Shown here: in pieces, positions 22,325 through 37,100 of the stretch | Layout of the letters: each line of letters opens with the position of its first letter | Numbering within the stretch: the stretch's first letter is position 1 | Virus record (IMG/VR): IMGVR_UViG_3300027726_000002 | Length of the DNA stretch: 42,288 nucleotides | Direction: 5' to 3' (one strand) | Source of the DNA: a virus | Program-made: the position numbers and the translations under genes | Notes under the pieces: model-generated | Database searches by the model: none | What the model was told of the DNA's origin: nothing | The model's input: the letters and a program-made list of their open reading frames with translations, nothing else

Positions 22325-22340
22325 GACATTTGTCTAGTTT

Positions 22341-22355
22341 TGGTAGAATAGAAAT
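22341..22355 (+). promoter_or_regulatory. Extended -10 promoter giving a leaderless CI-like transcript (PRM-like)
   Basis: TGgTAGAAT (TG at 22341-22342, -10 at 22344-22349) is followed by 6 nt and then ATG 22356. There is no SD upstream, although almost every other gene has a GGAG-type SD. Confidence 0.45.
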
Positions 22356-22812: not shown

Positions 22813-22840
22813 TTTACAATTATATCAGAATTAATGTTCT

Positions 22841-23136: not shown

Positions 23137-23191
<55 letters not shown>

Positions 23192-23231
23192 GGAACATCT
23201 TACCACCCACCTGCTTTGGTAAAAGTGGCCT

Positions 23232-24194
23232 GTGGTTCGTAAATCACCCAACCGGGGGGCGCTTACCTTGAAACTGTCCGCCGCCATCCAGGGCTTTAAG
23301 ATCGTCCGCCTTGCCGATGGATATTCCCCGGCCACCCTTGCTGTCTACCAGTGGGCGCTGGAAAGATTGCAGTGGTATCTGGATAATCCCGAAGTCGATC
23401 AAATCACAGAACAGAACGTTCAATCCTTCTTCGCATTCCTACGAACGGACTATGATCCCCCACTGGCCGGCGCGTCCATCGAAAACGTTTGGAAGGCCGT
23501 CCGCTCATTCTACAATTGGGCCAGCGATACCCTGCCAATTCACCGTCCAGATAGCAGGATACCCCGCCCGCGTTATGCTCAGGAAGAAATCCAGCCCTAT
23601 ACACGGGAGGAAGTGAAGGCATTGCTCCGGGCCTGCGAGTACACCACCCTCGCCCTCAGTATGCGCCGCAAGTCGTTTGCAATGAAACGCCCGACCGCTT
23701 TTCGAGATCGGGCAATTGTGCTGCTCCTGCTGGATACCGGGGTAAGGGCAAGTGAGTTATGTCGTTTGACTTATAAGGACATCAACTTAGAATCGGGAAC
23801 GGTTCATATCCAGGCGTTCGGGTCTGGCAGGAAGACGAAATCCAGGACGGTGTACTTTCAGAAACATTCCCGGGCTGCGCTGTGGAAGTATCTTTCCTCT
23901 CAGCCACAAACAACATTTCTGTTTACCACTTCCACCCTTGCCACGCTCAATCGCGGCAGTCTCTATCACATGATTGATGCGCTGGGAGAACGCTCAGGGG
24001 TGCTGTCCGCAAATGTCCATAAGTTCCGCCACACCTTTGCCATTCAATACCTGCGCAATGGGGGGGATGTCTTCACGCTTCAACGTCTGCTGGGCCATGC
24101 GTCGCTGGAGATGGTCAGGCGTTATCTGTCTCTGGCAGATAATGACGCTGCCTCTGTGCATAAGGGCGCTTCTCCGGTGGATAACTGGCTTTAG
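23232..24194 (+). CDS. int: Tyrosine recombinase / phage integrase
   Basis: DTGVRASEL (Arg I), HKFRHTFAIQYL (HxxR), LLGHASLEMVRRYL (His and the catalytic Tyr), and an N-terminal SAM-like domain (YSPATLAVYQWALERL). The listed start is GTG, so the exact start is uncertain. Confidence 0.9.
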   Translation: MVRKSPNRGALTLKLSAAIQGFKIVRLADGYSPATLAVYQWALERLQWYLDNPEVDQITEQNVQSFFAFLRTDYDPPLAGASIENVWKAVRSFYNWASDTLPIHRPDSRIPRPRYAQEEIQPYTREEVKALLRACEYTTLALSMRRKSFAMKRPTAFRDRAIVLLLLDTGVRASELCRLTYKDINLESGTVHIQAFGSGRKTKSRTVYFQKHSRAALWKYLSSQPQTTFLFTTSTLATLNRGSLYHMIDALGERSGVLSANVHKFRHTFAIQYLRNGGDVFTLQRLLGHASLEMVRRYLSLADNDAASVHKGASPVDNWL

Positions 24195-24733
24195 AAATAC
24201 TTCATCCTCTTAAATGTCTGCCGTCCCCTTTTGTTGGTCTTGACCAGCGTCCCTCCGCTTATCTTAGCCAGCGTGGTGACGGTTGGCTGCAACGGGGTGA
24301 CAATCGGCGCTCTATCGTCAAACTCCAATTCCAATATCCCTTGCAGATAGGGTAACGGGTCAAAGTGTCCTTTCCAGATCCCCGCTGTCCCCCGCCTAAA
24401 TCCCAAATGCAGGTGCGGGCCGGTCGAATTGCCCGTGCTTCCCATGATCCCCAATACATCATCGGTGGTCAGTTCGTCGCCGGGTCTGCATAAGACTTCA
24501 TCCAGGTGGGCGTAGTAGAATTTCACTCCGCCGAATTGCGCAATCACCAGCTTGCCATATCCGTACTGATCCCACCCCGCGCTGATCACCACCTGGTTAC
24601 ATACTGGTCTGATCTCCGGGTTAGCTGACCACAAGTCCAGGCCATTATGAGCCGGGTATCCAAACTGTTTGTAGTCGTTCGGGTTTGCTCCGAAGACCTG
24701 GGTGATTTGTGGGTTGATCAAAGGCCATTGCAT
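24191..24733 (-). CDS. M23 (LytM-type) metallopeptidase: endolysin or virion-associated lysin
   Basis: HNGLDLW (HxxxD) and GSTGNSTGPHLHLGF (HxH). It is the last gene of the late operon. Confidence 0.8.
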   Translation of the reverse strand: MQWPLINPQITQVFGANPNDYKQFGYPAHNGLDLWSANPEIRPVCNQVVISAGWDQYGYGKLVIAQFGGVKFYYAHLDEVLCRPGDELTTDDVLGIMGSTGNSTGPHLHLGFRRGTAGIWKGHFDPLPYLQGILELEFDDRAPIVTPLQPTVTTLAKISGGTLVKTNKRGRQTFKRMKYF

Positions 24734-25270: not shown

Positions 25271-25605
25271 AGTTTCTTTCTCACTGCTGCGATTGCCGAT
25301 TCAATGTCAACCAGTTCCGGTTCCCAAAACGGGACCACCTCCCGCTTATAGTGGTTGAAGAGTACCGCTTCCCGGAATCGGTCTTCGTTGCTGAATTGCC
25401 CGGTGTGCCAGTAGGTTCCGTAAACTTCCACCGGGATTTCAAACGGGTCGTATACCACAAAGTCTACAATGAACTGCCCGCGCCGGCCGGTAAATCCAAA
25501 CGGGGCAACCTGGAACCGGTAGGCTATTTTCAGCTTGTCAAACGCCTGAGCCAGCACCCACTCCGGGCGGGTGGCGCTCTGGTTCCGTATGCTGAACTCA
25601 CTCAC
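25267..25605 (-). CDS. Vsr/DUF559-like restriction-endonuclease-fold protein (putative)
   Basis: RPEWVLAQAF...FIVDFVVYDPFEIPVEVYGTYWHTG resembles the E...DF...(I/V)E(V)xG..WH core of Vsr/DUF559 proteins. ATGA-type overlaps on both sides. Confidence 0.35.
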   Translation of the reverse strand: MSEFSIRNQSATRPEWVLAQAFDKLKIAYRFQVAPFGFTGRRGQFIVDFVVYDPFEIPVEVYGTYWHTGQFSNEDRFREAVLFNHYKREVVPFWEPELVDIESAIAAVRKKL

Positions 25606-28298
25606 GAGTCGATCTCCACCAACATCATTTGCCCCATGTACGCTTCTTCCCCGGTTTCCAGTACGATTTTATCCGGGTTGAGGGTGACATTCTCCACCCA
25701 GGCATAGCGCCCATTGAGCGGGGTTGCTACGCTGGTCACATAAACCGGGGTGGCGCTGGCTTTCATCGTGTCCAGTGCGTTCATCTTCAAGTTGTGGTCG
25801 GTGTAATCGTCCGGCTTTCCGAGAAGATTGAAGTCCTTGTCTGCAATCCTAAATGTCAGGGTCGCGGCGTGTCTTGTCTGGATGCGTGGCATGGCCTCAT
25901 GCACCATTGCCAGTATGCGGGGGGTGGCGTTCCCGTCCACGCTCTTCAGAGTGAACTTGAATTGGATGCGCTTCCCTACCACGCTGGGCGTCGTCGCCAG
26001 CTCCAGTTCTTCCGAAAAGGTGTCAATTGTCCCCGTGACATCTGTCCAGGAGGTTGCGTTATCCAGCCGATACGCCAGGGTAACGGTCTCATCCGTCCCC
26101 GCTCCTTCGCAAATCGTCCGCATGGCATAGTACAGTTTGTCCACTTCCTGCAATTCGACATAATGATAAGCCGTGATTAGCGTTCCCTCGGTTGCGAATT
26201 TATACCCGTTGTAGGTATCTGCAGGGTGGTTGAATGGGTCGGTGGAGAGGGGTAGCCAGATGATGTTATTCCCCTCGCAAATCCACAACCTGTCCACCGC
26301 ATTTCCGGGGATGCTTTGGATGTACAGGTTTTGGATGCGTTCTCCCAGCGTTCCTCGGTATAACTCGCACCACCCGCGGTCATTGTAGGCGATCACGTTC
26401 GATACCCCCGCGCTGCCGGCGTCCACCGCGCCGATCAGCATTCCGGGGTAGCCTACGAGGGCTGAGAAATATCCAAACCGGTCAGAGGTTGGCACTGCCA
26501 CTTCCGCTTTGTCCGGGCCTACCCCATCCAATAGCCCATTGTAGTATCTCAGCACGGTGTTATGCCACGACATATACAGGTAGGTATCTTGTACGCAATG
26601 AGCGGCTCCATTCCGCCGGTCACGGGTGGCGCCCATCTGGCGGATGTCAAACTCTTCCCATGTCCCTTCCCGCCAGCGGTGCATACTCCCCTCTTTGAGC
26701 GCAACCATCAGGTTTTGCCATGCTTCGGCATATCGTTCCAGCCCGGTGATCCGTTCGTATTGATCCCCCACCACCTGGGCTGTGCCAAATGTCAATACGG
26801 TTTCTGTCCCAGTGTAGCCGGTGTAATCTACTGCGGTGGCATAGGCGACGGTGGCCGGGTATCCGCCCTTTGCTCCCCATATTCTCCCTGCTGAAAAGGC
26901 GAGGAAAGTAAACGCTCCGGTTTCGGCGTCTTGCCCGGCGGTTGATCCGCTGTAATGATACGTCCAGGTTCCACCGCTGTTGAAGGCGATTACCCGTTTA
27001 AGGACTTCGGTATCACCACATGCAAAATACACCGCTCCATTGATTGAGAGTACATCTGTAACCACCACGTTGTAAGCAGTATCAAACCCGGCGATCTCGG
27101 TGAACTTATTGGATGCGATGATTGCCAGCACATCATTTTCAGCCGGGGCGATGTCCCACGGGTCACTGAATGTCAGTGCGGTTTCACTGCTGCTTGTTGC
27201 AACACTGTCTGTGATCACCCGCCAGTTTTGGGGTTGGCTGGATCCCGTTCCCGATACAATCACACAGATACATCCTATGGCCTCGTCTGTTGCCCATGAC
27301 GCCTGGCCTTTGATGGTCACTCCGGTTGTGGTTGCCCCGGTCTTTGCCAGTCCATGATCACCGTTCAAATAGAGTTTGCTGGATGTGCCATTGTTGTTCT
27401 GCATCGCATAGTAGAGCGCCCCCTTATACTCGAATAGATGCGCTCTGTTCTTTGCTGATCCACCATTGGTCATGACGTAACTTGGGGTTTGTGGTAGTCC
27501 ACCTGTGTCTGTATAGGTTGATCCGTCTGTGCTTACGGATAGTTCGCATTCCGATCCCGATTCTTGATGCGCAATGGTAATTCCGGCGCTGCTGGTCACG
27601 CCTGTGTTTTTGAATGTCAGGTAAAAATCTTGAGCGGATGTCAGTGCCACTCCCGCTGCAAAAGTGAATTTGTAGGATGTCGCGTCGGATGAGATAGACG
27701 GGATAAATATGCTGTTATCAGACCATACTTCGCTTCCGCCATCTGGCTTTATTCCCAGGCTCATAATCCCGGCGGTTGCGCTTCCAGATGTTTTTCTTAG
27801 TGTAACAGTGACATCCTTTACGGTGATGGTCACAGTGGCATTATTATTGGTGCGATAGTAAACGGTGCTTCCGGTTACTGCGCCGGAAAAGTAGCAGGCT
27901 TTTGTATTGTAATGTATTCCGATGTTGTTACTCATTGATACAAGAGCGCCAAAACTGACAATGGTAGATTTCGGCCCCAAGATCACCTCCCCCGGTCGCA
28001 TGGTGTTGATCTGGTAGCCATCAAGATACATGCTGGTATCCTTGTCAAAATCGTTTGCCCCCCGGCCTCCGCTCCAATCGTTCTGTTCAATGTACTTCCA
28101 GAACCCGGAGAAGTCCGCATGTTTCTGCTGCCCGGTCGAAATCTGCAAGGCGCTCTGCTGGTATTCTTGCCGCCTGAATGCGCGCGGTTCGGCTTTGCCC
28201 TGGCTGTTGCATAGGATCAATCCCACTGACGTTGCTCCCTGGGTCAGTACAACGTGGTGGCTGCTTCTCTTATTGGTTGGGCTGGCGGATGCGGTCAT
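25602..28298 (-). CDS. Large tail protein, 898 aa (nozzle/tail-tubular-B-like with beta-propeller-type repeats; putative)
   Basis: It is the largest tail-module ORF. The N-terminus has NDWSGGRGANDFDKDTSMYLDGYQI. Recurrent blade-like segments are GAVYFACGDTEVL, GRIWGAKGG, TYLYMSWHNTVLRYYNG and DRLWICEGNNIIWLP. The call is by position and architecture only. Confidence 0.5.
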   Translation of the reverse strand: MTASASPTNKRSSHHVVLTQGATSVGLILCNSQGKAEPRAFRRQEYQQSALQISTGQQKHADFSGFWKYIEQNDWSGGRGANDFDKDTSMYLDGYQINTMRPGEVILGPKSTIVSFGALVSMSNNIGIHYNTKACYFSGAVTGSTVYYRTNNNATVTITVKDVTVTLRKTSGSATAGIMSLGIKPDGGSEVWSDNSIFIPSISSDATSYKFTFAAGVALTSAQDFYLTFKNTGVTSSAGITIAHQESGSECELSVSTDGSTYTDTGGLPQTPSYVMTNGGSAKNRAHLFEYKGALYYAMQNNNGTSSKLYLNGDHGLAKTGATTTGVTIKGQASWATDEAIGCICVIVSGTGSSQPQNWRVITDSVATSSSETALTFSDPWDIAPAENDVLAIIASNKFTEIAGFDTAYNVVVTDVLSINGAVYFACGDTEVLKRVIAFNSGGTWTYHYSGSTAGQDAETGAFTFLAFSAGRIWGAKGGYPATVAYATAVDYTGYTGTETVLTFGTAQVVGDQYERITGLERYAEAWQNLMVALKEGSMHRWREGTWEEFDIRQMGATRDRRNGAAHCVQDTYLYMSWHNTVLRYYNGLLDGVGPDKAEVAVPTSDRFGYFSALVGYPGMLIGAVDAGSAGVSNVIAYNDRGWCELYRGTLGERIQNLYIQSIPGNAVDRLWICEGNNIIWLPLSTDPFNHPADTYNGYKFATEGTLITAYHYVELQEVDKLYYAMRTICEGAGTDETVTLAYRLDNATSWTDVTGTIDTFSEELELATTPSVVGKRIQFKFTLKSVDGNATPRILAMVHEAMPRIQTRHAATLTFRIADKDFNLLGKPDDYTDHNLKMNALDTMKASATPVYVTSVATPLNGRYAWVENVTLNPDKIVLETGEEAYMGQMMLVEIDS

Positions 28299-28366: not shown

Positions 28367-29164
28367 TCACTCATAATATCCCCCCATGTGCGGGGTCTTC
28401 TGTAAGCCATAGATCGGATAGCGCGCATCCATCAGGGCTTCTTGCGCCAGGGCTTCATTCATCAGTTTGATCAGGTCGGGGCGGTCTTCCCGATATCGTT
28501 GTACCCGCCATCTCAGCGCATGTACCGCCGCTTTCCAGCTTAGCCGGTCAGGGTAGATGTAATTCGAGATCGCGTCTGTGTCCGCTGTAAGCGTGGTGGG
28601 CAATGCCACATGGGTCAGCCTGATTTTGTAATCGGCTTCATCCGGGGCGCGCTCTGTGTCAAATGCAATCGTGGTTCCAATTTGCCGCCAGCCAAAATGC
28701 GGGACGTATTGGTATGGTGCGGTGGTCATCATTGCCACTTCCACTTTCCGTACATCGATCACGCCCGCCGGTAGGGTGTAGGCTTCCTGGTCTGCCACTG
28801 TCACCAAAGTAGCATCTTGCGCCGGTATTCCTCCAATGGCCCTTAACGCTTTATTGATCGCCTGAATCAAAACATACCGGGGGAAGTCTGCATTACAGGA
28901 TGCGTATAGATTACCCGCCGCGTTGACCAGGGTCATGGTGGCAAAGGTGTATGTCCCGGTCGATTTCGCCCAATCGGTGATGACTGCGCTCTTTCCGGCG
29001 TTGTTCCCGCTCAAAGGCCAGATGGTTCCGCCGTTGAAGTAGTCATCCTCTTCAGTGACCCCGGTATCAAGCAGGGTGGTTGCCGATCCCCCGGTGGCTG
29101 TCCCTTCCACCACGCTGGTGATCAGCCGGGCCAGGTCAAGTGTCGCTGATGCTAAGGTTGTCAT
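28367..29164 (-). CDS. Virion structural protein, 265 aa (adaptor/tail-tubular-A-like by position)
   Basis: SD GGGAGAAATATTGCT. It lies immediately upstream of the large tail protein. No motif recognised. Confidence 0.45.
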   Translation of the reverse strand: MTTLASATLDLARLITSVVEGTATGGSATTLLDTGVTEEDDYFNGGTIWPLSGNNAGKSAVITDWAKSTGTYTFATMTLVNAAGNLYASCNADFPRYVLIQAINKALRAIGGIPAQDATLVTVADQEAYTLPAGVIDVRKVEVAMMTTAPYQYVPHFGWRQIGTTIAFDTERAPDEADYKIRLTHVALPTTLTADTDAISNYIYPDRLSWKAAVHALRWRVQRYREDRPDLIKLMNEALAQEALMDARYPIYGLQKTPHMGGYYE

Positions 29165-29783
29165 AGCAATATTTCTCCCAGTCTTTTCTTGTCACAGTTC
29201 CCAAACGAATGTGCGGGATCTCCACGCCGGTATGCACGTACCTTGCAATCCCCGCTTTCTCACATTGCAGGGAGAAGTACCAATCCTCCCCGCCGCGTAC
29301 CACATCATACATTTTCTTCCAGTAGGGTGGTTGCAGTTTGTCGAATACCCAGCGCCGAATCGCTATCGCCCCGGTTCCCACCATGTCCGCCGGGATGATT
29401 TTATTCTCCGGTATCTTGCTCGTTGAGTACCAGAATTCCGGGTCTTCGCTGTCTTTCATGTAAAACGCCGGGCGGCTGTCTTCTCCCCGGCAGAATGCAA
29501 GCGCGGCCACTACCCCATAATCCGGGTGCGGGTCAAGCGCCAGTCTTTCCACCACGTTGGCGGGGTATTTGTGGTCTGCATCCAACATCACCAATGTGTC
29601 ATACGGGTCGCTGGTGCTTTCCATAAACGCTTCCGTAAATTGTTCCCGCGCCCATTCGGTTGCGGTGTGCGGCACGCTGATCCGGGTCCAGTTCTGCGAT
29701 CCGCATCGGGAGGCTACTCCCAATAAGCTGTCTACCGCTTCGTCGTACATGCCTCGTTCGAGGAGGACACCCCAATAGATCAT
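29136..29783 (-). CDS. GT2-like glycosyltransferase
   Basis: TLVMLDADHKYP (DxD-type), GGEDWYFSLQCEKAG (the ED..F motif of GT-A enzymes) and VGTGAIAIRRWVF. The start is taken at ATG 29783; a GTG at 29810 is also possible. Confidence 0.65.
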   Translation of the reverse strand: MIYWGVLLERGMYDEAVDSLLGVASRCGSQNWTRISVPHTATEWAREQFTEAFMESTSDPYDTLVMLDADHKYPANVVERLALDPHPDYGVVAALAFCRGEDSRPAFYMKDSEDPEFWYSTSKIPENKIIPADMVGTGAIAIRRWVFDKLQPPYWKKMYDVVRGGEDWYFSLQCEKAGIARYVHTGVEIPHIRLGTVTRKDWEKYCYDNLSISDT

Positions 29784-29829
29784 TTTTGTTTTCCTATCTC
29801 CGTAAGCCACCGGCCTACCGTGTTCGTCT

Positions 29830-30522
29830 TCAGCCCGCGCCTGTACAGGTAATCGTCCCGCCGCCCAATGCAGGTGGAACCTGGATCACGTTCTTACCCG
29901 TGTACGCATCCAGCCGATAGTAAATGATCATGTCCGGGCTGGTGGTGTTGAGAACGCCGAACAGATCCCCGTTTGCCGCCATCAATGCAAAGCGGGCAAT
30001 GAATGACCGGCTTACTGTGATGTCAATGCTGAAATCAGCCAGGCCTCCCGGCGGTGTGAACGGGATCGGGATGTCAGGCAATACCCCCGCGCTGGTCAAC
30101 ACGTACCCATCCCAGGGGCAGCTGCCCTCATTGCGAATGATGAAATGCAAGCGTTTTATTCTGCCAATTTCCAACGCCCCCGCTTGTAGGTCACTCACTG
30201 GTTGGCTTACCACCCAGGCAATATTGGTACAGGGTGGTGAGGGTATTTCTGTGGGTGTGGCTGTGGATGTGGGTAATAAAGCGTTTTCGATGGGATACTG
30301 CAACGCTTCGGGGGCGGGGGTAGCCGTGACAATCTTCTCAATCACTTGCGTTATAACGCGTTCGACTTCTACCGGCGCTTCCACCACCCGCTCTTGATAC
30401 TGGACTTCCGGCGATGATGTTGGCCATGTGTACCAGACAACTCCGACCGTAGCTGCGCCAATCAAGAGCAGGCATCCGGCCATTGCCATTGATAAGAAAA
30501 CAGTGATGATGGTGTTTTTCAT
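29830..30522 (-). CDS. Membrane-anchored protein with NBR1-like Ig domain
   Basis: N-terminal TM IITVFLSMAMAGCLLLIGAATVGVVWY. The C-terminal domain contains FIIRNEGSCPWDGYVLTSAG, the N-x-G-x-C-x-W motif of N_BRCA1_IG-type Ig domains. ATGA overlap with the upstream glycosyltransferase. Confidence 0.5.
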   Translation of the reverse strand: MKNTIITVFLSMAMAGCLLLIGAATVGVVWYTWPTSSPEVQYQERVVEAPVEVERVITQVIEKIVTATPAPEALQYPIENALLPTSTATPTEIPSPPCTNIAWVVSQPVSDLQAGALEIGRIKRLHFIIRNEGSCPWDGYVLTSAGVLPDIPIPFTPPGGLADFSIDITVSRSFIARFALMAANGDLFGVLNTTSPDMIIYYRLDAYTGKNVIQVPPALGGGTITCTGAG

Positions 30523-32000
30523 ATCTTCACCGCCAACTTTTTCAAATCACTTTTGCTGATAAATCCCCAACTATGCCCCACTTCAATCCGCACATCTTCC
30601 CCAAATACGGTAACACTGATCTGTTTCTCAGAAACTTTTCGCTGTGACTGAAAACTTTCTCTCATGCTGATGTCTTTCGTCCGGTATTCCAGGCTGTCCG
30701 GGCGGGCTTGATACACCCCCATCACCAGGGGCAGGTGGTAGAAGTTCTTTTCCCGCGCACATCTCAACCAGAAGTCATAGTCCATTGCCGATGTCAGGCT
30801 TTCATCGAACCACCCCACCCGCTGATGCAGGGATGCCCGGTATAGTGGTTGTGGGCCAATGAAACAATTCCGCCCCAATGCTTCCCGGCTGTAGTCCGGC
30901 CAGATATATACCCCCGGTTGGCCTTCGTGTCTTCCCCCCACCACCTCCGGGTTATTGGCTACAAAAGTATCATATGGGATGTTTGGCTCCCAACTGACGA
31001 ACACATCCGCATAGACCAAATCAATGTCTGGTCTGCCATCCATGAAGTCCGCCATGATCCCCAATGTGTTCTTCTTCAGCCGGTCGTCTGTGCAGGCGGG
31101 GATGATGTACTTCCCCCGTGCTTTCTTTGCGCCCAGGTTCCAGGCGGTTGCCAGGTTGGGGACATCCGGGGTGGTGATGAGCTGCTCCACCTTCCATGCC
31201 TTTGCCACTTCCTCTTCCATCCCCCCTTTTTGGCAAACGACCACGATCTCAATCGGTTCGCTCTGGTTGCGCAAATCGCGCAAACATTCCTCAATATAGG
31301 GTTCTGCATAATAGGCGGATACCACCGCGCTCACCCGGTATCGTGGCCCCAGAACATGCGCCATGGGCAGCACGGGGAATATTTCTAATTCCGTTTTCTC
31401 CGAGCAATTGATAATATGCCGTCCATGCTTCTGATAATAATTGCTGGCTAAGCTGTAAGCCAGTTCGCTCATTCTCAAATCGGGGGTGTGCCACTCGTAC
31501 CCCGTGAAGTAGTCCGGGTGGAAATGTACCCGGTCTTCGCCTTCGAATACTTCCCGTTCGTTCGGGCTTCCGGTGTCCCCGTAGTCGTGGTCTACCCCCA
31601 GCAGGATCACCTGTTCAAATCCCATGTAGAATGCCAGTTGCAGGGCGACATAGGTGACGGTATACCCCTCCCAAATGGCTTTTTCGGGGGAGTAAAAGCC
31701 GGGGTTCGCTTCTCCGGTATCCAGGGTGATGACTTTCCCCCTTTGGTTTTGGACCACCCCCCTGCCACTTAGAAACTTATCGCAGTCAAGGTTCCCGATC
31801 TCGTCCCCGAATTGGTTGAGTACCAGGCTGTTGACACATACGTAATAATCCGGGGTATATCCTGAAAGATATATCCTGTTTGTTCCGAACACAAGTTCGC
31901 CATTCAACTGGCTGAAGTCAAAACCCTTCAGGGATGGGCCATTTCCGAGGATAAAGCATCTGCCCCGGTGAATGTTTTTGTAGTCGGTGATGTATTGCAT
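30519..32000 (-). CDS. Two-domain glycosyltransferase: MptE/Maf/sialyltransferase-like (DUF115) N-domain plus GT2 C-domain
   Basis: The N-domain has CFILGNGPSLKGFDF, YVALQLAFYMGFEQVILLGVDHDY and VHFHPDYF. These compare with the GNGPSL and G(I/V)D signatures of Maf/Cst-type nonulosonic-acid transferases. The C-domain has VSAVVSAYYAEPYIEECLRDL and YIIPACTDDR (GT2). The start is taken at ATG 32000 (MQYITDY) with SD AAGAAAGAGGACA. Confidence 0.65.
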   Translation of the reverse strand: MQYITDYKNIHRGRCFILGNGPSLKGFDFSQLNGELVFGTNRIYLSGYTPDYYVCVNSLVLNQFGDEIGNLDCDKFLSGRGVVQNQRGKVITLDTGEANPGFYSPEKAIWEGYTVTYVALQLAFYMGFEQVILLGVDHDYGDTGSPNEREVFEGEDRVHFHPDYFTGYEWHTPDLRMSELAYSLASNYYQKHGRHIINCSEKTELEIFPVLPMAHVLGPRYRVSAVVSAYYAEPYIEECLRDLRNQSEPIEIVVVCQKGGMEEEVAKAWKVEQLITTPDVPNLATAWNLGAKKARGKYIIPACTDDRLKKNTLGIMADFMDGRPDIDLVYADVFVSWEPNIPYDTFVANNPEVVGGRHEGQPGVYIWPDYSREALGRNCFIGPQPLYRASLHQRVGWFDESLTSAMDYDFWLRCAREKNFYHLPLVMGVYQARPDSLEYRTKDISMRESFQSQRKVSEKQISVTVFGEDVRIEVGHSWGFISKSDLKKLAVKI

Positions 32001-32013
32001 TGTCCTCTTTCTT

Positions 32014-32048
32014 ATCAAAATAGCCCGCCCACTAGATAGCAGGCGGGC
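32014..32048 (-). terminator. Rho-independent terminator after the capsid gene set
   Basis: The minus strand reads GCCCGCC, a 12-nt loop and GGCGGGC, followed by TATTTTGAT. The hairpin (32023-32048) starts 26 nt after the stop of 32075..32431. Confidence 0.6.
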
Positions 32049-32074
32049 CTGGGTAATAAGTGATCTACCCCGTC

Positions 32075-32431
32075 TTAGAACTTGGTATATTCGCCGCCAA
32101 GTTCAGGGTAAACCGAGTAGGTGAAGTTGGGCGATGTGCCAGCCAGGGTGGAGTAGTACCGGCGATAGCGGGCGTCAGATTTGCCCGTCACGCGGTGGAT
32201 CCCCGCGGCAGTGGTCAGGGTCGGGAAGCTAACAAAGTCCCGCCAGGTCGAGTTGTTGTCGCTCTCCTGGATTTTGACGGCTAACGTTCCAGTTGCGCCG
32301 GTGAGGGTGGTGCAGTTCAACACATACGTGATCGGGTTGACATCCGCTCCGCCGAAATCAACGCCGGTTGCGCTGGTGACGCTGGAGGTTTGCGCTCCAG
32401 AGGTTTTAAGCACGAGATTTGCATCTAACAT
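32075..32431 (-). CDS. Ser/Thr-rich 118-aa beta protein directly after the major capsid gene (decoration protein candidate)
   Basis: The start is taken at ATG 32431 with SD GGAGGATGAA; the MCP stop lies inside this SD. S/T-rich tracts: KTSGAQTSSVTSATG, TTLTGATGT, PTLTTAAG, STLAGTSPNFTYS. Confidence 0.55.
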   Translation of the reverse strand: MLDANLVLKTSGAQTSSVTSATGVDFGGADVNPITYVLNCTTLTGATGTLAVKIQESDNNSTWRDFVSFPTLTTAAGIHRVTGKSDARYRRYYSTLAGTSPNFTYSVYPELGGEYTKF

Positions 32432-32441
32432 TTCATCCTCC

Positions 32442-33422
32442 TTACGCGGCCACGATGCCATGAATGCGGCCAACCGAGAACGGCGAGACCATGTAGATGC
32501 CGGGCGTCCAGTCAATCGTCACCCGGTAGGCGTTCCCAGCTTGCAGCAGGCCGATGTCCTGAACATCAATCGGGTAGACCTGGAAACCGTTAACGTATTC
32601 TCCGCCGTATTTTACGGAGTAAATCGAGCTACATGCTCCGCCGGTAAGAGCAGTTCCATCAGCCAATTCAGCCACACCCAACACCTGGGCGGTCAAATCC
32701 AGCGGGTCAGTTACCCCCGCTTCCATGATCTTCGGGCCGCCTTCGCCAAACGTGGCAAACGTGCGACCATAGCTGTCGGTCGTGGTTCCCAACATGCCGG
32801 ATTGGCGCATGGCCGATTCAAAGCGCAGTTTCAGGGTGCGCCCCATATAGAGAATATCCGGCCCGCCATCGCCGTGACCGGTGACATCCATCAGTTGATG
32901 GACGTAATCGACCAGTTTGATTTTGTCAGCCGCCAGGGTTGCGCTGTCCGGGGAGATGTCAATACTCCCGGCTGCAATAGACTGCGCCGAGGGCAGGTAG
33001 TTGACCAGTCGATACCACAACCCGGTTAAAGAGTCGTAATCGCTGGTCGGTGTGCCGTTGAAGAAGACGTTGTTGAAATACGCGCCCATGGCCTTGGTGA
33101 ACATCGAGACTTGCAGCGCCTTCTGATCCACCTGCGTTTTGGCTTTCATCAGGGTCTTGTCGATGTCGATGTATCCACCGAAGTTGATGATCCGGTCTTT
33201 CACCGGTTCAATCTGGCCTTTGCTCTCGGTGAACGTGCCGCCAATTTTGCGGCTGTACACGGTCGGCAGGCTCTTGGTGCGCAAGAGTTCAATGTCAAGC
33301 GTGCCTTCGTCACTGAATGAAAGGCTGTCCAGGATGGGCGATGCCATCCGCAGAATGTCAATCACGCCCGCCTTCAGCGGAGATTCCGCCAGTCGTGCGT
33401 AATCGGCTAAAGTATATGCCAT
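32442..33422 (-). CDS. Major capsid protein (HK97-fold type, putative)
   Basis: 326 aa, immediately after the scaffold gene, with SD GGAGGGTAACAAC. The N-terminal pattern LADYARLAESPLKAGVIDILRMASPILDSLSF...LPTVYSRKIG is typical of capsid families. The gene is bracketed by an internal promoter and a terminator. Confidence 0.7.
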   Translation of the reverse strand: MAYTLADYARLAESPLKAGVIDILRMASPILDSLSFSDEGTLDIELLRTKSLPTVYSRKIGGTFTESKGQIEPVKDRIINFGGYIDIDKTLMKAKTQVDQKALQVSMFTKAMGAYFNNVFFNGTPTSDYDSLTGLWYRLVNYLPSAQSIAAGSIDISPDSATLAADKIKLVDYVHQLMDVTGHGDGGPDILYMGRTLKLRFESAMRQSGMLGTTTDSYGRTFATFGEGGPKIMEAGVTDPLDLTAQVLGVAELADGTALTGGACSSIYSVKYGGEYVNGFQVYPIDVQDIGLLQAGNAYRVTIDWTPGIYMVSPFSVGRIHGIVAA

Positions 33423-33447: not shown

Positions 33448-34089
33448 TCAGAGACCTTTCGATCTGAAATGTTCAGATATCAGGTCCAACCCGCTTTTGC
33501 CTGAGTATGGTGATGTCGGCCCGCCCGCCCCAGATAATCCGGGGGTGCTGGTCGCATCTTTCACGGGGGATTTTTCACGCGCTTTCTTGACTTCAATGGC
33601 AGCCGGCAATGATTTGAGGAATTTGTAGGGGTCGCTCATGTCAATGAGTTTCGCTTCCGGGTCATTATCGTAGATGACCACCCCAGCCTCATCCATCATT
33701 TGCTGCGCCACTTTGGTAATCGGATCGACCAATGAGGGGTCTGTCAGTGTGGACGGTGGTTGGCCTTCCCCCGCCGCTGAGTTTTCCTCGGTAAGAACCT
33801 GGTCAGTAACTTGCTGCTCCAGCGCCGCTTTCTGATTTCCATCCAGCGTCACGCCTGCTTTGGTAAGCTGCTGTTCAAGTTTTGTTACCTCGCTCCGAAT
33901 GCGTGTGTTTGTTTTTGTGATCAGACCTTGCGCCCGGCGGAATGCTTTTTCTTCTGCTTCTCCCACCAGTTTTAAGACTTCATCACGGGTGACTGTCGGT
34001 TGAGTTGCAGCCTCGCTCTGTCCCGTTGCCGGGGGAGTACCCGTTTGGCCTGCGGGCGGTGCAACAACTTTCAATTCTTGCCCTTCCAT
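33448..34089 (-). CDS. Scaffolding protein
   Basis: 213 aa, acidic, with long coiled-coil heptads (EEKAFRRAQGLITKTNTRIRSEVTKLEQQLTKAG). It is immediately upstream of the capsid gene and has the strong SD GAAGGAGGATT. Confidence 0.65.
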   Translation of the reverse strand: MEGQELKVVAPPAGQTGTPPATGQSEAATQPTVTRDEVLKLVGEAEEKAFRRAQGLITKTNTRIRSEVTKLEQQLTKAGVTLDGNQKAALEQQVTDQVLTEENSAAGEGQPPSTLTDPSLVDPITKVAQQMMDEAGVVIYDNDPEAKLIDMSDPYKFLKSLPAAIEVKKAREKSPVKDATSTPGLSGAGGPTSPYSGKSGLDLISEHFRSKGL

Positions 34090-34105: not shown

Positions 34106-34154
34106 ATTAATCAGATTAATGCTATTATACAACAATCGCTTGTAAATTACAAGT
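34106..34154 (-). promoter_or_regulatory. Internal capsid promoter P-late2: same palindrome/-35/-10/ATTAAT architecture as P-late1
   Basis: The minus strand reads ACTTGTAATTTACAAG-CGATTGTTG-TATAAT-AGC-ATTAAT-CTG-ATTAAT. The -35 TTGTAA is plus 34147-34152, the spacer is 17 nt and the -10 is plus 34124-34129. The palindrome begins at the last base of the giant-ORF stop codon. Confidence 0.55.
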
Positions 34155-37100
34155 TATTGCTGATAAGAAAATAGTTCCAATACCTGCGCCAACCACGCGT
34201 CATAGGGCAGGCCGCTCTTTTCCTTTTTCCACAGGGAGTAGAGTTCTGCCCGCGCGCCTTCGCCCAGCGGTTTGCCGGTCAGGGTGTGGGCGAATAGTTC
34301 TGTGCTGACATATCCATCGAACAGGTTGCTATCCACCCGGTATCCGGCGGTGTAGTCATCTCCCAATACTGCCTTTGCTATCGTGTCGCTGCTCTTGACA
34401 TGGGGGATAATTTCCGGTGATTGCGCCAGCCGTGCTTTCTGCCAGTCCCAGTATTGCCGTAATTCCGGGTGGTCCAACAGGTAGGCTTTGCGAGCTGCCC
34501 CGGTCAATGAATAATACTTGTCCTGGGTCAGTCCGATCTTGGGGAAGTATTGGGCTTTCTCACCTTTGTATGCGTACACCTGCGTCAAGATTTCTTCCGG
34601 GACGCCGGATAAGCGGCTCTCTTCTCCGATCATATACGGGATCAGGTCGGGGTTTTCTGCGATGAACATATCCCGCCATTCCTGGTATTCGGTCAGCATG
34701 GGGTTATTCTGTCTGAACTGATCTTGCATGGCCGGGGGCAGTTTGTAGTACATGCTCTGGATCAGGTCGATATTCGGGAATTGTGTCTTGCGAGTTTCCA
34801 GGTAGGTGCTGTATGCTCCGCTTTCGGCCTGGCCGGGCAGTTCCAAACTCCCTTGTGGCACGGCGGGGGCGGTGTCTGGCACTTTGCCGCCTAATAGCTG
34901 CGTCCATTCCGTGATCGTTGCCAAATCAATTGCATCGTAAGAGCGGGTTTCTTTATTCAGGAACGCTTCCTGGAACAGTTCTCCCAGTTGGTCGGTCGCT
35001 TCCCGTCGTTCCAGTTCGCTCAGGCCATTGTAGGCGTCCCAGATGGATCCAATCAGGTAGCGTTTCACCCGTTCTTCCGGGTCGTCCCAGTTGGTGAGCA
35101 TCATCCGGGCTTCGTATTCCGGGTTGGCGTCAAAGAATTCTGCCACTGTCCCGTTTTCTATCGCCTGGCTGAATTCCTGTTGCAGTATCCGCTGTTCTTG
35201 TTCGCCTTCCGGGAACAAGTCAAGTGATAGGGTGGCAGTATACGACTTGACCGCCGCTTGCTTTCCCGTCCGGCTCATCGCTTCCTGCCACAATTCCCCC
35301 TGCTGGTCTACCATTGCCAGCATCACCTCTTCTATGTTCGCTTCCCCGTTTGCGACCATGTTCGATAATTCCCGTTCGATGTAGTAATTGAACAGGAACC
35401 CGCGCTCCGGCGCGCCGAGGGCTTTCTGTAACCACCCACCCGCATTCACTCCGCCGGGGGTAAAAAAGCTGGTGATGTTGGTGACGGCTTGCAGAGAAGG
35501 CGGGGCTTTGATCTTGCTTTCCCGCCCCATGATTTTCTGGTAGGCAACTTGCAGCGGCCAGCTAAACCCGCTCATGGTGTTCACCAGGTCAATCGGGTTG
35601 GCGATCTCCGCTTCCACTTCCATCTGCGCCTGGGTGATGGCTTTCTCCCATATCGGGCCGGCTTTGTTGTTCAGGGCTTCGCTCATCTGCGCCTGGGTGA
35701 TCTGCCCGTCTTCCGCCATTTGTCGAATCAGGAATTGCGCCTTACTGATCCGGTTGGCTTCATCCTGTTGCAGTGGTCGCATGGTCTGATTCAACATCTG
35801 TTCAAAGCTAAACATCCGTTTGAGCGGGTCAACGTAGATGGTATTCCCCCACCCTTCCGGCAACCACGGGAATGGGATAGACATCTTGCCGCGCAATCGC
35901 GCCGGGAACCCGGGCATCTGTTTGCTCATCCGCTCCTGGGCGTCTCTTATCCGGCTGTATTGGGAGAGATAAGCGGGGTGATCAATCGCCCGCATCGCCC
36001 ATTCCATCGCGCTCCGGGTAAACCAGAACTGATAGGGGAAGACGATCCCCGCTATGTTGTCCGCGCCATAGCGTTTGGTGTAGTCGAGCAGGGCAATGTC
36101 CCGGTTTACTTTTGCGTATCGTGTAGCTGTCAGTTTGGCGTCTGTCAGTTTGGCGTATTGTGTTTCGAGATATCTTCTTACCTCCTTCACCTGTTCTGGG
36201 GATAGGTTGGCGTCTTTCAAATTCACGGCATTGCCGGTGTCGCCCTTCATCCGTCCCTGCATGGTGTCAATCAAATGATAGATGGTTTCGTTCCATCCGC
36301 TTTCGAAGAGTTTCCCGATGTCCTGGGGGTATAGTCCGGTGACGGTTCCGGGGGGAGCGTCACCAACAGGGTTGGGGTTGGGGTTTGCCGTTTCGCTGAC
36401 TTCCCCGCCCCATTCCTCCACTTTCGCTTGTATCGTTTCCCGTTCCAGTTCTTCAATCCGCCCGGCCATCTCCTCTAATGTTGGCTCTTCCAGAAGTGCG
36501 AATGGTGCGGGGGTGATTGGTTCTTCAATGGTCACTTCTTCAATGGGTGGGGGTTGGGTCGCTTCCACCTGTGGCGCTTCTACCTTTGGCGGGGTGGGCT
36601 GCGAATACTTCGCCGCCAGGTCTGGGTAGTCTGCCAGCACTTCAGCAGGAACGGGCTTGCCTTCGGAGAGGGCGCGCTCAACAAATGCTGCGTGAAGCTC
36701 GAATAAATCATCTGCGCTAATACCGTTCAGGTATTCTGAGCTGTAATTCCCCATAGGCGTTGCTTTGCCGCTATTTACATCAATAAACCACTTCTTCCCG
36801 TACTTTTGAAACGTATCAACTAGATAGGGGAATTCTTCTCTTGAATAGATTCTTGTTTCGCCATCAATTATTTCGACGGGAGTATATAACTTGTAGAACT
36901 TCTCAGAAGTTAAAGCATGCGGATCAATTGAGTTGAATAATTGTCTGTAGTATTGCGACATAGCCCAATCAAATACAGCTCGTTCGGTAAACTCGATGTC
37001 ATCCCCAAAATATTTCTTTTGGAGATTTTTTATATTATTTGTGATTTCACCTTTCGACATTTCAAGTAACTGTTCTATGCTTAATAGATCGTTACTTTCA

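What the first reader, a model, noticed from the sequence alone, without database searches (positions are those of the whole stretch)
29136..32431. Glycosyltransferase cassette (three GT domains plus a membrane Ig protein) embedded in the virion module next to a Ser/Thr-rich capsid-adjacent protein
Three genes lie between the capsid genes and the tail genes:
- a fusion of an MptE/Maf/sialyltransferase-like domain (GNGPSL, LLGVDHDY) with a GT2 domain (30519..32000)
- a TM-anchored protein with an NBR1-type Ig domain (29830..30522)
- a second GT2-like enzyme (29136..29783)

The three are translationally coupled. Immediately upstream, after the major capsid gene, is a 118-aa Ser/Thr-rich beta protein (32075..32431) that would be a plausible O-glycosylation acceptor.

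Virion glycosylation by phage-encoded GTs is established for some mycobacteriophages. A Maf/Cst-like domain would imply nonulosonic-acid-type sugars, which would be unusual for a phage particle.

Alternatively, the cassette modifies host surface glycans (receptor masking). The membrane anchor of the Ig protein fits that alternative.
Basis: partly seen in the sequence, partly recalled or inferred. Interest (0 to 1): 0.65.

Follow-up and report, generated by a model that had tools for sequence, protein, structure and literature searches.

The report
Three-glycosyltransferase module inside phage virion operon
An uncultivated temperate phage carries three soluble sugar-transferring enzyme domains between its capsid and tail genes, and the same enzyme trio sits inside the virion-gene operons of at least four unrelated phage lineages, so it most likely puts sugars on the phage particle, though this is not proven.

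Summary
Window 30519..32000 (-) encodes a fusion of a DUF115/MptE-like domain (GNGPSL motif as in Cst-II) and a GT2 domain. 29136..29783 (-) is a GT-A glycosyltransferase that Pfam misses (AF2 pLDDT 93.7). 29830..30522 (-) is a membrane-anchored protein with an NBR1-type Ig domain. 32075..32431 (-) is a Bbp16-like jellyroll capsid cement protein.

The main new result is comparative. GT-A + DUF115 + GT2 recurs in 41 of 53 related viral contigs across at least four lineages with unrelated virion genes. It is fused or split, and always packed into the morphogenesis operon (median gaps 8 and 11 nt). A lytic cultured phage, CcrColossus, has a similar cluster after its tail genes. Mycobacteriophage Corndog, whose virion glycosylation is reported, keeps its unrelated GT/methyltransferase genes in an equivalent place.

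I favour virion glycosylation (0.5). Host-glycan modification remains a real rival (0.27): the closest bacterial homologues sit in polysaccharide clusters and the phage is temperate.

- The nonulosonic-acid idea is weakly supported; a CMP-activated donor is only hinted at.
- The cement protein's Ser/Thr richness is not tied to GT presence.
- The membrane Ig protein does not belong to the module.

New variant of a known kind.

The parts
32442..33422 (-). Major capsid protein (GP7-type HK97 fold)
   Evidence: Pfam PF20911 1.4e-11. PHROG 212 'major head protein' 2.9e-35.
32075..32431 (-). 118-aa jellyroll capsid cement/decoration protein (Bbp16-like). Candidate acceptor, but not a specific one.
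   Evidence: AF2 pLDDT 87.6. Best PDB fold match is 3j4u_H, BPP-1 Bbp16 (E 1.3e-4, TMq 0.66, 25% identity). Weak Pfam Bbp16 hit at 0.04. S+T is 25%.
32022..32049 (-). GC-rich hairpin (12-bp stem) with a short U-tract, between the cement gene and the GT fusion. Likely leaky terminator or attenuator.
   Evidence: Free energy -29.2 kcal/mol, z -3.7. Equivalent hairpins follow the cement gene in L001, L003 and L007. In the GT-less L009 the hairpin follows an extra 231-aa gene instead.
31347..32000 (-). N-terminal DUF115/MptE-like domain (GT42/Maf superfamily) of the fusion protein, residues about 1-218
   Evidence: PF01973 at 34.1 bits (cut-off 34.6) and PHROG 4603 at 8e-11. The domain profile hits Cst-II at about 1e-3 on the GNGPSL region. 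Invariant residues: GNGPSL, G135, D137, H138, H159.
30519..31346 (-). C-terminal GT2 (GT-A, DxD) domain of the fusion protein, residues about 219-493
   Evidence: PF00535 6.6e-10, above cut-off. PDB 6p61 at 6e-10 and chondroitin synthase. D305 and D306 invariant.
29830..30522 (-). Membrane-anchored, probably extracytoplasmic protein: N-terminal TM segment, Pro/Thr/Val/Glu linker, NBR1-type Ig domain with conserved Cys. An accessory gene, not part of the conserved module.
   Evidence: TM segment at residues 2-33. 32 relatives, some of them strong PF16158 members. Absent from all related loci. Its homologue in L146 has no GT neighbours.
29136..29783 (-). 215-aa soluble GT-A glycosyltransferase from a family without a Pfam model
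   Evidence: Invariant D68-x-D70 (H71 nearly invariant), invariant E166 (D167 nearly invariant), invariant H191. AF2 pLDDT 93.7. Foldseek against PDB and BFVD returns GT-A enzymes. The profile gives weak hits to ArnC and DPMS at the DxD segment.
28367..29164 (-). Head-tail adaptor (SU10 type). Its start overlaps the GT-A stop by 29 nt.
   Evidence: PF24175 1.9e-10. Sequence read.
25602..28298 (-). 898-aa tail (nozzle/fibre-like) protein, syntenic in the whole lineage
   Evidence: tblastn synteny with L001-L013. No family hit.
23143..24194 (+). Lysogeny elements: attP-like 3' tRNA fragment (about 23143..23190) and tyrosine integrase (23232..24194). About 5 kb from the cassette, with tail genes in between.
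   Evidence: PF00589 3.9e-34. tRNA-like T-arm and CCA end read. Loose ends of many RNA contigs converge at 23158 and 23190.

Best explanation
The cassette is a minimal version of a mobile phage glycosylation module with three units: a GT-A enzyme, a DUF115 enzyme and a GT2 enzyme. It is transcribed with the late morphogenesis genes, at a reduced level after read-through of the hairpin that closes the capsid-shell gene block.

The three soluble enzyme domains act in the cytoplasm on host nucleotide-sugar pools. One would start a short glycan on exposed residues of virion proteins while particles assemble, and the others would extend it. Candidate acceptors are the Bbp16-like cement protein, the MCP and the tail proteins. 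The DUF115 domain probably uses a CMP-activated sugar.

What is shown:
- the enzyme folds and catalytic-type motifs;
- the solubility of the enzymes;
- the placement and tight packing of the module in structural operons of several unrelated lineages.

What is inferred:
- the acceptor (virion proteins);
- the order of action of the three domains;
- the donor sugars.

The membrane Ig protein is a separate accessory gene inserted into the same slot.
For: (1) Three real GT domains without TM segments.

(2) 41 of 53 IMG/VR loci found with the fusion profile carry all three units. They fall into at least four lineages with unrelated virion genes:
- GP7-type podovirus lineage: between the cement gene and the adaptor;
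- HK97-type siphovirus lineage: between connector genes and the putative major tail gene;
- a third lineage: between head genes and the putative tail/TMP genes;
- a fourth lineage: just upstream of TerL and portal.

(3) Median gaps to the flanking structural genes are 8 and 11 nt, so there is no room for separate promoters.

(4) The fusion is better conserved (43-45% identity) than the MCP (27-32%) among distant members of the window's lineage. 9 of the 10 loci of that lineage that span the slot between the capsid genes and the adaptor carry the module.

(5) Other versions of the module add an FkbM methyltransferase, a MobA/MocA-like nucleotidyltransferase, a further GT2 and a GT61. These are complete glycan-building kits, with no flippase, polyprenyl-phosphate GT or any other membrane component.

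(6) Lytic Caulobacter phage CcrColossus has a DUF115 gene overlapping the end of its tail gene cluster, followed by a GT-A, a methyltransferase and a GT9. This argues against lysogenic conversion as the general role.

(7) Precedent. Corndog gp35 (O-methyltransferase), gp37 (GT2-like) and gp38 (GT25-like) lie immediately upstream of the capsid maturation protease (gp39) and the 410-aa gp41 (annotated hypothetical; the capsid gene by position). Corndog virions are reported to be glycosylated by these enzymes (PMC12363180 and PMC12619734, both citing Freeman et al. 2023).

(8) The nearest folds to the 215-aa enzyme include viral and protein-directed GT-A enzymes: STIV A197, Mimivirus R699, ColGalT1, LH3, ppGalNAc-T.

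(9) No promoter-like site lies ahead of the cassette.
Against: - No glycan or acceptor is shown.
- The closest cellular homologues of the DUF115 domain (45-50% identity) lie in cell-surface polysaccharide clusters (Wzm/Wzt, Wzy/WecA-like, PMT). In bacteria both domains occur in giant multi-GT proteins, which normally act on lipid-linked acceptors.
- Enzymes 35-45% identical serve phages with unrelated capsid and tail proteins. This fits a common host acceptor at least as well as a promiscuous protein acceptor.
- The cement protein's S/T content is not linked to GT presence, though only one GT-less relative was available. No virion protein has an S/T-rich tail like the mycobacteriophage acceptors.
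- The phage is temperate.
- The sigma-70 promoter scan may not apply to the likely Chloroflexota-type host.
- Metatranscriptome contigs show only that the region is present in RNA libraries. They give no expression pattern.
Confidence: 0.5

Rival explanations
1. Host envelope glycan modification. The soluble GTs add residues to lipid-linked or nascent cell-wall or surface polysaccharide on the cytoplasmic face of the membrane. This would change the receptor or serotype, giving superinfection exclusion in lysogens or preventing progeny from re-adsorbing to debris. The membrane Ig protein could belong to this envelope-directed function.
For: - The closest bacterial homologues are in polysaccharide and O-antigen-type clusters and in giant multi-GT proteins.
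- The phage is temperate, with an integrase and a tRNA-type attP.
- The same enzymes occur in phages with unrelated virion proteins.
- A membrane-anchored Ig protein lies inside the cassette.
- A hairpin separates the cassette from the capsid genes, as at moron boundaries.
Against: - The cassette is 5 kb from int/attP, with tail genes in between. No promoter-like site is found and its end overlaps the adaptor gene.
- In other lineages the module is packed with 8-11 nt gaps between connector and tail genes.
- There is no flippase, GtrA/GtrB-type or other membrane partner, and the GTs lack TM segments.
- A similar cluster exists in a lytic phage.
- The Ig protein is absent from every other copy of the module.
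- The hairpin is a lineage feature. In the GT-less L009 it is also present, placed after its capsid-block genes.
Confidence: 0.27
2. The enzymes glycosylate a non-structural phage or host target, for example hypermodified phage DNA or a cytoplasmic host protein, or they make a free or secreted glycan. The placement among virion genes would then be incidental, as cargo in a variable slot.
For: - Phage GTs that glycosylate DNA are common (reviewed in PMC12619734).
- The slot between the cement gene and the adaptor is variable and also holds LamG, small ORFs and the Ig gene.
- The GT-A of the window is closer to those of other lineages (29-39% identity) than to those of L003 in its own lineage (25%). 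This shows module shuffling.
Against: - No hydroxymethylase or other base-modification gene is detected. The replication module holds only a C5-methylase-like gene.
- DNA-modifying GTs are expected with early or replication genes. Here the module is in late operons in four lineages.
- The enzyme trio is too conserved for random cargo (41 of 53 loci).
Confidence: 0.1
3. The specific reading of the first reader: the DUF115 domain is a Maf/Cst-type transferase that places a nonulosonic acid (Pse, Leg or Neu5Ac) on Ser/Thr of the 118-aa cement protein.
For: - The GNGPSL and G-x-D-H motifs align with Cst-II.
- PHROG 4603 carries a sialyltransferase label.
- One recurrent bacterial cluster pairs the DUF115 gene with a PseF/KdsB-like cytidylyltransferase.
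- Some phage versions carry a MocA-like nucleotidyltransferase.
Against: - No gene annotated as a NulO synthase or other NulO pathway gene appears in the window, or in the 9-10 kb flanks read around the three bacterial DUF115 homologues. The viral loci were not fully annotated.
- The cytidylyltransferase hit is far below the equivalog cut-off (65 against 205.7 bits). It is paired with a 2-hydroxyacid dehydrogenase and an SDR, which is not a NulO pathway.
- Two of the three bacterial contexts examined have no cytidylyltransferase.
- The cement protein of the GT-less L009 is equally S/T-rich.
Confidence: 0.08

Closest known systems
Mycobacteriophage virion glycosylation (Che8 gp110, Corndog gp35-38, Myrna; Freeman et al. 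2023, as cited in PMC12363180, PMC12619734 and PMC11256854)
   Same: - Phage-encoded soluble GT-A-type glycosyltransferases, with a methyltransferase in some versions.
- In Corndog the genes sit inside the head gene block, immediately upstream of the capsid maturation protease (gp39) and the 410-aa gp41 (annotated hypothetical; the capsid gene by position). Here they sit between the capsid/cement genes and the adaptor.
- Phages with such GTs include both temperate (clusters F and I) and virulent (cluster O) mycobacteriophages (PMC12363180).
   Different: - No detectable sequence homology to the window's enzymes.
- There is no DUF115 domain in Corndog gp35-38.
- The mycobacteriophage acceptors are reported as C-termini of the capsid and tail-tube subunits. 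The MCP here has no such tail.
- The host phylum differs.
Caulobacter phage CcrColossus / phiCbK-like gp126-gp131 cluster (uncharacterised)
   Same: - A DUF115 'sialyltransferase-like' gene homologous to the window's N-terminal domain (28% identity, tblastn 7e-8; HMM 2e-12).
- It is placed directly after the tail genes and followed by a GT-A, a methyltransferase and another GT.
   Different: - It is a jumbo lytic phage of an alphaproteobacterium.
- DUF115 is not fused to GT2, and the partner GTs are not homologous to the window's.
- I found no published function.
GT42 sialyltransferases (Campylobacter Cst-I/Cst-II) and Maf flagellin glycosyltransferases (Pfam PF01973 superfamily)
   Same: - An N-terminal GNGPSL nucleotide-binding-type motif followed by N-x-x-Y, and a G-x-D-H segment.
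- These align to Cst-II residues 5-39 and about 141-161.
   Different: - Only about 1e-3 at profile level, and only over the N-terminal motif.
- No NulO genes are nearby.
- The bacterial relatives sit in polysaccharide clusters, not in flagellar or LOS loci.
Virus-encoded capsid glycosylation in STIV (A197), chloroviruses and mimiviruses (R699)
   Same: The 215-aa protein's best structural matches include A197 (TM-score 0.68 on the target) and R699. These are small cytoplasmic viral GT-A enzymes that do not depend on host secretory glycosylation.
   Different: They are archaeal and eukaryotic viruses. Sequence identity is 10-17%, so the similarity is at fold level only.
Seroconverting prophage glycosylation cassettes (gtrABC type)
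   Same: A temperate phage carrying glycosyltransferase genes.
   Different: In gtr cassettes the products are membrane proteins (flippase, bactoprenol GT, specific GT) encoded next to int/att (established knowledge of the family). Here the enzymes are soluble, lie within the late operon and have no flippase.

Membership tests
GT2 (Pfam PF00535, GT-A fold, inverting, DxD) | Significant match to the family model above its curated cut-off | tested here: met
   Residues 230-332 of the fusion: 39.6 bits against a cut-off of 23.3, E 6.6e-10. PDB GT2 enzymes 6p61 (6e-10) and K4CP chondroitin synthase.
GT2 (Pfam PF00535, GT-A fold, inverting, DxD) | Conserved DxD-type metal/nucleotide-sugar motif | tested here: met
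   D305 and D306 (in T-D-D-R) are invariant in 47 homologues. D407 and W411 are invariant in the (A/G)DY(D/E)FWLR segment.
MptE-like / DUF115 (PF01973; includes Maf; related to GT42 Cst-II) | Match to the family model at its curated cut-off | tested here: inconclusive
   The window protein scores 34.1 bits against a cut-off of 34.6. Nearly all of its full-length homologues carry a precomputed PF01973 hit. PHROG 4603 scores 8e-11.
MptE-like / DUF115 (PF01973; includes Maf; related to GT42 Cst-II) | N-terminal G-N-G-P-S nucleotide-binding motif aligned with Cst-II | tested here: met
   The profile of 36 domain sequences aligns GNGPSL...N-R-x-Y with Cst-II residues 5-39, at E about 1e-3. The motif is invariant.
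MptE-like / DUF115 (PF01973; includes Maf; related to GT42 Cst-II) | Use of a CMP-nonulosonic acid donor, with NulO pathway genes alongside | tested here: not met
   No NulO or CMP-sugar genes in the window. The bacterial neighbours have at most a sub-threshold PseF/KdsB-like cytidylyltransferase, with no gene annotated as a NulO synthase in the flanks read. Donor chemistry itself cannot be tested here.
GT-A fold glycosyltransferases (215-aa ORF) | Rossmann-like GT-A fold | tested here: met
   AF2 pLDDT 93.7, pTM 0.89. 136 PDB matches at E <= 1e-3; the top 30 listed are GT-A-fold glycosyltransferases or GT-A-like proteins, with KDO cytidylyltransferases (same fold class) appearing lower in the list. 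BFVD top hits are phage GT-A proteins at TM 0.76.
GT-A fold glycosyltransferases (215-aa ORF) | DxD/DxH metal motif and a downstream acidic/His catalytic set | tested here: met
   D68 and D70 invariant and H71 nearly invariant; E166 invariant and D167 nearly invariant; H191 invariant, in 37 sequences. The profile aligns the DAD segment with the DxD of ArnC and DPMS.
GT-A fold glycosyltransferases (215-aa ORF) | Membership of an existing Pfam/NCBIfam GT family | tested here: not met
   No Pfam or NCBIfam hit. Only 1 of 37 homologues carries PF00535.
NBR1-type Ig domain (PF16158 N_BRCA1_IG) | Match to the family model | tested here: inconclusive
   No direct Pfam hit at E <= 0.1. phmmer links residues about 95-190 to P0189, P0197, P0201 and P0205 (3e-17 to 6e-4). 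These are strong PF16158 proteins, with E from 6e-95 to 1e-21.
Bbp16-like capsid cement protein (PF21190; BPP-1) | Jellyroll fold matching Bbp16, encoded directly after a BPP-1/GP7-type MCP | tested here: met
   The top PDB match is 3j4u_H (E 1.3e-4, TMq 0.66). The gene starts 10 nt after the MCP stop. The MCP matches PF20911. The Pfam Bbp16 hit itself is sub-threshold (14.7 against 27.1 bits).
Mycobacteriophage virion-glycosylation system | Homology of the glycosyltransferases to Corndog gp37/gp38 (Che8 gp110 class) | tested here: not met
   HMMs of the three window units find nothing in Corndog gp33-gp49. hhalign of A1 against gp38 and gp37 gives probabilities of 0.04% and 0.6%.
Mycobacteriophage virion-glycosylation system | Glycans covalently attached to capsid or tail subunits | not testable with these tools
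   Needs virions or recombinant proteins and mass spectrometry.
Seroconverting gtrABC-type cassette | Membrane flippase plus bactoprenol GT plus a serotype-specific membrane GT, next to int/att | tested here: not met
   Neither GT protein has a TM-like segment (maximum 19-residue hydropathy 1.62 and 1.05). The cassette is separated from int/attP by about 5 kb of tail genes.

The most novel reading that the evidence does not exclude
A previously unrecognised, horizontally mobile 'virion glycosylation module' is widespread in uncultivated temperate and lytic phages of sediment, soil and wetland bacteria. Its core is a GT-A, a DUF115 and a GT2 unit, optionally with an FkbM methyltransferase, a nucleotidyltransferase and a GT61. 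It would decorate capsids or tails of structurally unrelated phages with a methylated glycan capped by a CMP-derived acidic sugar. Particle glycosylation would then be a general phage trait, not an actinobacteriophage curiosity.
Probability: 0.3. Interest if true: 0.8.

Novelty: new variant of a known kind. Interest (0 to 1): 0.55.

Why it matters
To my knowledge, virion glycosylation by phage-encoded enzymes has been shown experimentally only in a few actinobacteriophages, where it changes antibody recognition of the particles.

If this module also glycosylates virions, the trait extends to several unrelated phage lineages in environmental bacteria. It would rest on a different enzyme set, including a GT42/Maf-like domain never characterised in a phage. 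It would also offer a compact, portable kit of two or three genes for studying or engineering particle surface glycans.

If the module instead remodels host polysaccharide from within a late operon, that would be an unusual form of receptor or serotype modification.

Either outcome can be tested with the cultured phiCbK-like phages that carry a related cluster.

Tried and rejected
- DNA similarity to GenBank phages: none. The MCP has 28% identity or less to any cultured phage.
Only one GT-less relative (L009) was available, so the test 'acceptor features co-vary with GT presence' has no power.
- The conserved KIQESDNNSTW loop of the cement protein contains a D-x-N-x-T sequon. I considered it as a glycosylation site. 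I rejected it as evidence because L009, which has no GTs, keeps a similar S-N-N-T loop and no oligosaccharyltransferase is present.
- Prophage and host identification through genome contigs: all 80 loci were bacterial GT loci and none was a prophage of these lineages. The host is therefore only inferred from the best DUF115 homologues, which are from Anaerolineae/Chloroflexota.
- Homology to the Corndog GTs: none.
- A PDB relative for the module's nucleotidyltransferase (family F3): none.
- Metatranscriptomes: four wetland RNA runs hold the region, but only as assembled contigs with patchy depth. This cannot separate late from lysogenic expression or exclude DNA carry-over.
- My iterated 'GT2c' HMM became contaminated with DUF115 columns through the fused proteins (seen). 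Domain assignments in split genes therefore rest on the BLAST identities, not on that label.
- Structure of the fusion protein: not modelled, because the prediction quota went to the two proteins without family hits.

Full report
**Setting.** The 42,288-base window looks like a complete genome of an uncultivated temperate tailed phage. Almost all genes are on the minus strand.

In transcription order the late region reads:
- a 2600-aa giant ORF (34154..41956);
- a scaffold-like gene (33448..34089);
- the MCP (32442..33422; Pfam GP7 PF20911 1.4e-11, PHROG 212 2.9e-35);
- a 118-aa gene (32075..32431);
- the three genes of the finding;
- an SU10-type head-tail adaptor (28367..29164; PF24175 1.9e-10);
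- an 898-aa tail protein.

Elsewhere the window encodes:
- TerS and TerL, and a holin;
- a primase-polymerase/D5 helicase;
- a PD-(D/E)XK nuclease, AAA_24 and ERCC4 proteins;
- an M23 peptidase;
- a tyrosine integrase (23232..24194, +; PF00589 3.9e-34) with an HTH gene.

A 3' tRNA fragment lies just upstream of the integrase and marks attP. No sugar-nucleotide synthesis gene was detected.

No GenBank phage matches at DNA level. MCP identity to cultured phages is 28% or less. The same sequence occurs in freshwater-sediment, soil and wetland runs.

**Checking the observation.**

The fusion (30519..32000, 493 aa):
- It has a C-terminal GT2 domain above the Pfam cut-off.
- Its N-terminal MptE-like/DUF115 domain scores 0.5 bit below the cut-off. 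PHROG 4603 supports it (8e-11).
- A domain profile aligns the invariant GNGPSL...N-R-x-Y segment with Cst-II residues 5-39.

The 215-aa ORF (29136..29783):
- It has no Pfam or NCBIfam hit.
- Its 37 homologues share a D-x-D-H motif (D68 and D70 invariant, H71 nearly invariant), an E-D pair (E166 invariant, D167 nearly invariant) and an invariant H191.
- Its AF2 model (pLDDT 93.7) matches only GT-A enzymes in the PDB and BFVD. These include STIV A197, Mimivirus R699, ColGalT1, LH3 and ppGalNAc-T.

The 230-aa ORF (29830..30522):
- It has one N-terminal TM segment (residues 2-33).
- It has a Pro/Thr/Val/Glu-rich linker, then a C-terminal domain with nearly invariant Cys98, Cys135 and Cys226.
- phmmer links this domain to strong PF16158 (NBR1 Ig) proteins.

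The 118-aa protein (32075..32431):
- It is a jellyroll whose best PDB match is the BPP-1 cement protein Bbp16.
- Its S+T content is 25%.

Gene junctions:
- Fusion and Ig gene overlap by ATGA.
- GT-A and adaptor overlap by 29 nt.
- A 46-nt gap precedes the GT-A gene.
- A 12-bp GC-rich hairpin (-29.2 kcal/mol, z -3.7) with a short U-tract lies between the cement gene and the fusion.

**What the relatives show.** The fusion has about 70 full-length homologue clusters at 40-67% identity, on contigs of about 30-44 kb.

In the window's own lineage (GP7 MCP, SU10 adaptor), 9 of the 10 loci that span the slot between the capsid genes and the adaptor carry the fusion plus a GT-A homologue between the cement gene and the adaptor (L008, a 2.3-kb fragment, does not reach the slot). 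Several also carry a GT61, an FkbM-type methyltransferase, LamG and small ORFs. Only L009 lacks GTs.

In distant members of this lineage the fusion is more conserved (43-45% identity) than the MCP (27-32%).

A profile scan of IMG/VR gave 53 further loci. Of these, 41 hold all three units, either fused or as separate genes. They fall into at least four lineages with unrelated virion genes:
- **Lineage 1 (the window's).** Described above.
- **Lineage 2 (HK97-type siphovirus).** The order is portal, protease-MCP (PF05065), connector (PF05135), GT-A, GT2, MobA/MocA-like nucleotidyltransferase, FkbM methyltransferase, DUF115, GT2, putative major tail gene, tape measure, hub.
- **Lineage 3.** The module lies between the MCP (PHROG 3990) plus small head genes and the putative tail and TMP genes.
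- **Lineage 4.** A GT-A-DUF115 fusion and its partners lie just upstream of TerL and portal.

Median gaps between the module and its flanking structural genes are 8 and 11 nt.

The hairpin after the cement gene is conserved in L001, L003 and L007. In the GT-less L009 it follows an extra 231-aa gene. It therefore marks the end of the capsid-shell block and is not a cassette boundary.

The Ig protein is absent from every related locus. Its only viral homologue found, in L146, has no GT neighbour.

**Cellular relatives.** Stand-alone DUF115 proteins from Anaerolineae/Chloroflexota MAGs are 45-50% identical to the phage domain. The three contexts examined are:
- a cluster of GT2, cytidylyltransferase, 2-hydroxyacid dehydrogenase, SDR, DUF115, PMT, PMT_2 and GT2;
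- a Wzm/Wzt O-polysaccharide-type cluster with rhamnose genes;
- a Wzy/WecA-type cluster.

The GT2, 2-hydroxyacid dehydrogenase, SDR and DUF115 genes of the first cluster recur in the same order in Actinomycetota, including Mycobacterium. An unannotated gap of about 230 aa there probably holds the cytidylyltransferase; I did not check it. The Anaerolineae cytidylyltransferase scores only 65 bits on the PseF model, whose cut-off is 205.7.

A scan of 185,579 species genomes returned 80 loci. None was a prophage of these lineages. Both domains occur there in giant multi-GT proteins of 1000-3900 aa.

The cellular kin thus build surface glycans. A CMP-activated donor is hinted at. A nonulosonic acid is not.

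**Known phage parallels.**
- Corndog virions are reported as glycosylated, with gp38 essential (PMC12363180, citing Freeman et al. 2023). Corndog encodes a TylF-type O-methyltransferase (gp35), a GT2-like protein (gp37) and a GT25-like protein (gp38), immediately upstream of the capsid maturation protease (gp39) and the 410-aa gp41 (annotated hypothetical; the capsid gene by position). These are not detectably homologous to the window's enzymes.
- The lytic Caulobacter phage CcrColossus has a DUF115 homologue (gp126) overlapping the end of its tail gene cluster. It is followed by a GT-A, a methyltransferase and a GT9, then the lysis genes. I found no functional study of this cluster.

**Weighing the explanations.**

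For virion glycosylation:
- The module repeatedly sits, tightly packed, inside late morphogenesis operons of unrelated phages, one of them lytic.
- The enzymes are soluble.
- No flippase or membrane GT partner is present.
- The Corndog precedent places functionally analogous genes in an equivalent position.

Against it, and for host-glycan modification:
- The cellular homologues work in polysaccharide pathways.
- The same enzymes serve phages with unrelated virion proteins.
- This phage is temperate.
- No acceptor signature was found. The cement protein of GT-less L009 is about as S/T-rich (19%), and no virion protein has a mucin-like tract.

DNA glycosylation is unlikely. There is no base-modification pathway, and the module sits in late operons.

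My confidences are:
- virion glycosylation: 0.5;
- host-glycan modification: 0.27;
- other targets: 0.1;
- the specific reading 'nonulosonic acid on the cement protein': 0.08.

**Novelty and verdict.** Phage-encoded virion glycosylation is a known kind of system. This enzyme set, and its spread through several environmental phage lineages, is to my knowledge undescribed. A literature search for phage, DUF115 and glycosyltransferase together found nothing.

I classify it as a new variant of a known kind, of moderate interest (0.55). It can be tested in cultured phiCbK-like phages or by co-expression.

Noticed in passing
window 34154..41956 (-): A 2600-aa ORF sits directly upstream of the scaffold gene and has no Pfam hit. 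Only its C-terminal ~740 residues are conserved across the lineage. In L004 the homologous gene is called as 4803 aa with GGDEF and helicase domains, and in L006 it carries ART-PolyVal. No separate portal gene was identified in the window, so this may be a portal fused to a polyvalent or ejected protein.
   Followed up: partly
window 23143..23190 (+), upstream of integrase 23232..24194: The sequence GGGGTGCAAGAGGTCGGAGGTTCAAATCCTCTCGCCCCGACCA is the 3' part of a tRNA (T-arm plus CCA end). Loose ends of many unrelated metatranscriptome contigs converge at 23158 and 23190. It is a likely attP core, which would mean integration into a host tRNA gene. ARAGORN finds no complete tRNA.
   Followed up: partly
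window 32022..32049 (-); L001 7918-8003, L003 6137-6214, L007 6069-6146, L009 8108-8178: A GC-rich hairpin is conserved after the last capsid-shell gene in every lineage member examined (z from -3.0 to -4.7). In the GT-less L009 it sits after an additional 231-aa gene. It is probably a leaky terminator that sets the ratio of shell genes to downstream genes.
   Followed up: yes
window 32245..32277 (-), cement protein residues 53-63: The loop KIQESDNNSTW is nearly invariant in 19 homologues. It contains D-N-N-S-T, which has the form of the bacterial D/E-x-N-x-S/T N-glycosylation sequon. L009, without GTs, has a similar S-N-N-T loop, so the motif may be structural.
   Followed up: partly
L005 6396-10822; L074, L078, L082-L085, L091: A gene cluster with GT2, 2-hydroxyacid dehydrogenase, SDR and DUF115 genes in the same order is shared by Anaerolineae and Actinomycetota, including Mycobacterium triplex and M. 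sherrisii. In the Anaerolineae locus L005 a PseF/KdsB-like cytidylyltransferase lies between the GT2 and the dehydrogenase; in the Actinomycetota loci an unannotated ~230-aa gap occupies that position. It suggests an uncharacterised CMP-activated acidic sugar pathway with a DUF115 transferase.
   Followed up: partly
L065-L144 (bacterial genomes): DUF115 and the GT2 domain occur in giant multi-domain proteins of 1000-3900 aa in Desulfobacterales, Ignavibacteria, Planctomycetota, Anaerolineales and others. Some carry TPR repeats (P0069).
   Followed up: no
window 19881..20366 (-) and 24191..24733 (-): A pentapeptide-repeat protein (PF00805 1.2e-13) lies in the early or replication region. An M23 peptidase (3.5e-17) lies at the end of the tail module and is a likely virion-associated or lysis peptidoglycan hydrolase.
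   Followed up: no
window 22001..23000: GC content drops to 0.42, against about 0.53-0.56 elsewhere. The dip falls at the divergent HTH/integrase switch region.
   Followed up: no
P0176 (homologue of the cement protein): A 50%-identical cement protein is deposited under a 'Candidatus Magasanikbacteria' (CPR) MAG on a 39.9-kb contig. It is probably a phage contig binned with that genome. This is a caution for host assignment.
   Followed up: no
window 29136..29783 compared with L003, L044 and L050: The window's GT-A is closer to the GT-A genes of other phage lineages (29-39% identity) than to that of L003 in its own lineage (25%). The DUF115 domain shows the opposite pattern. Parts of the module appear to be exchanged independently.
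   Followed up: partly
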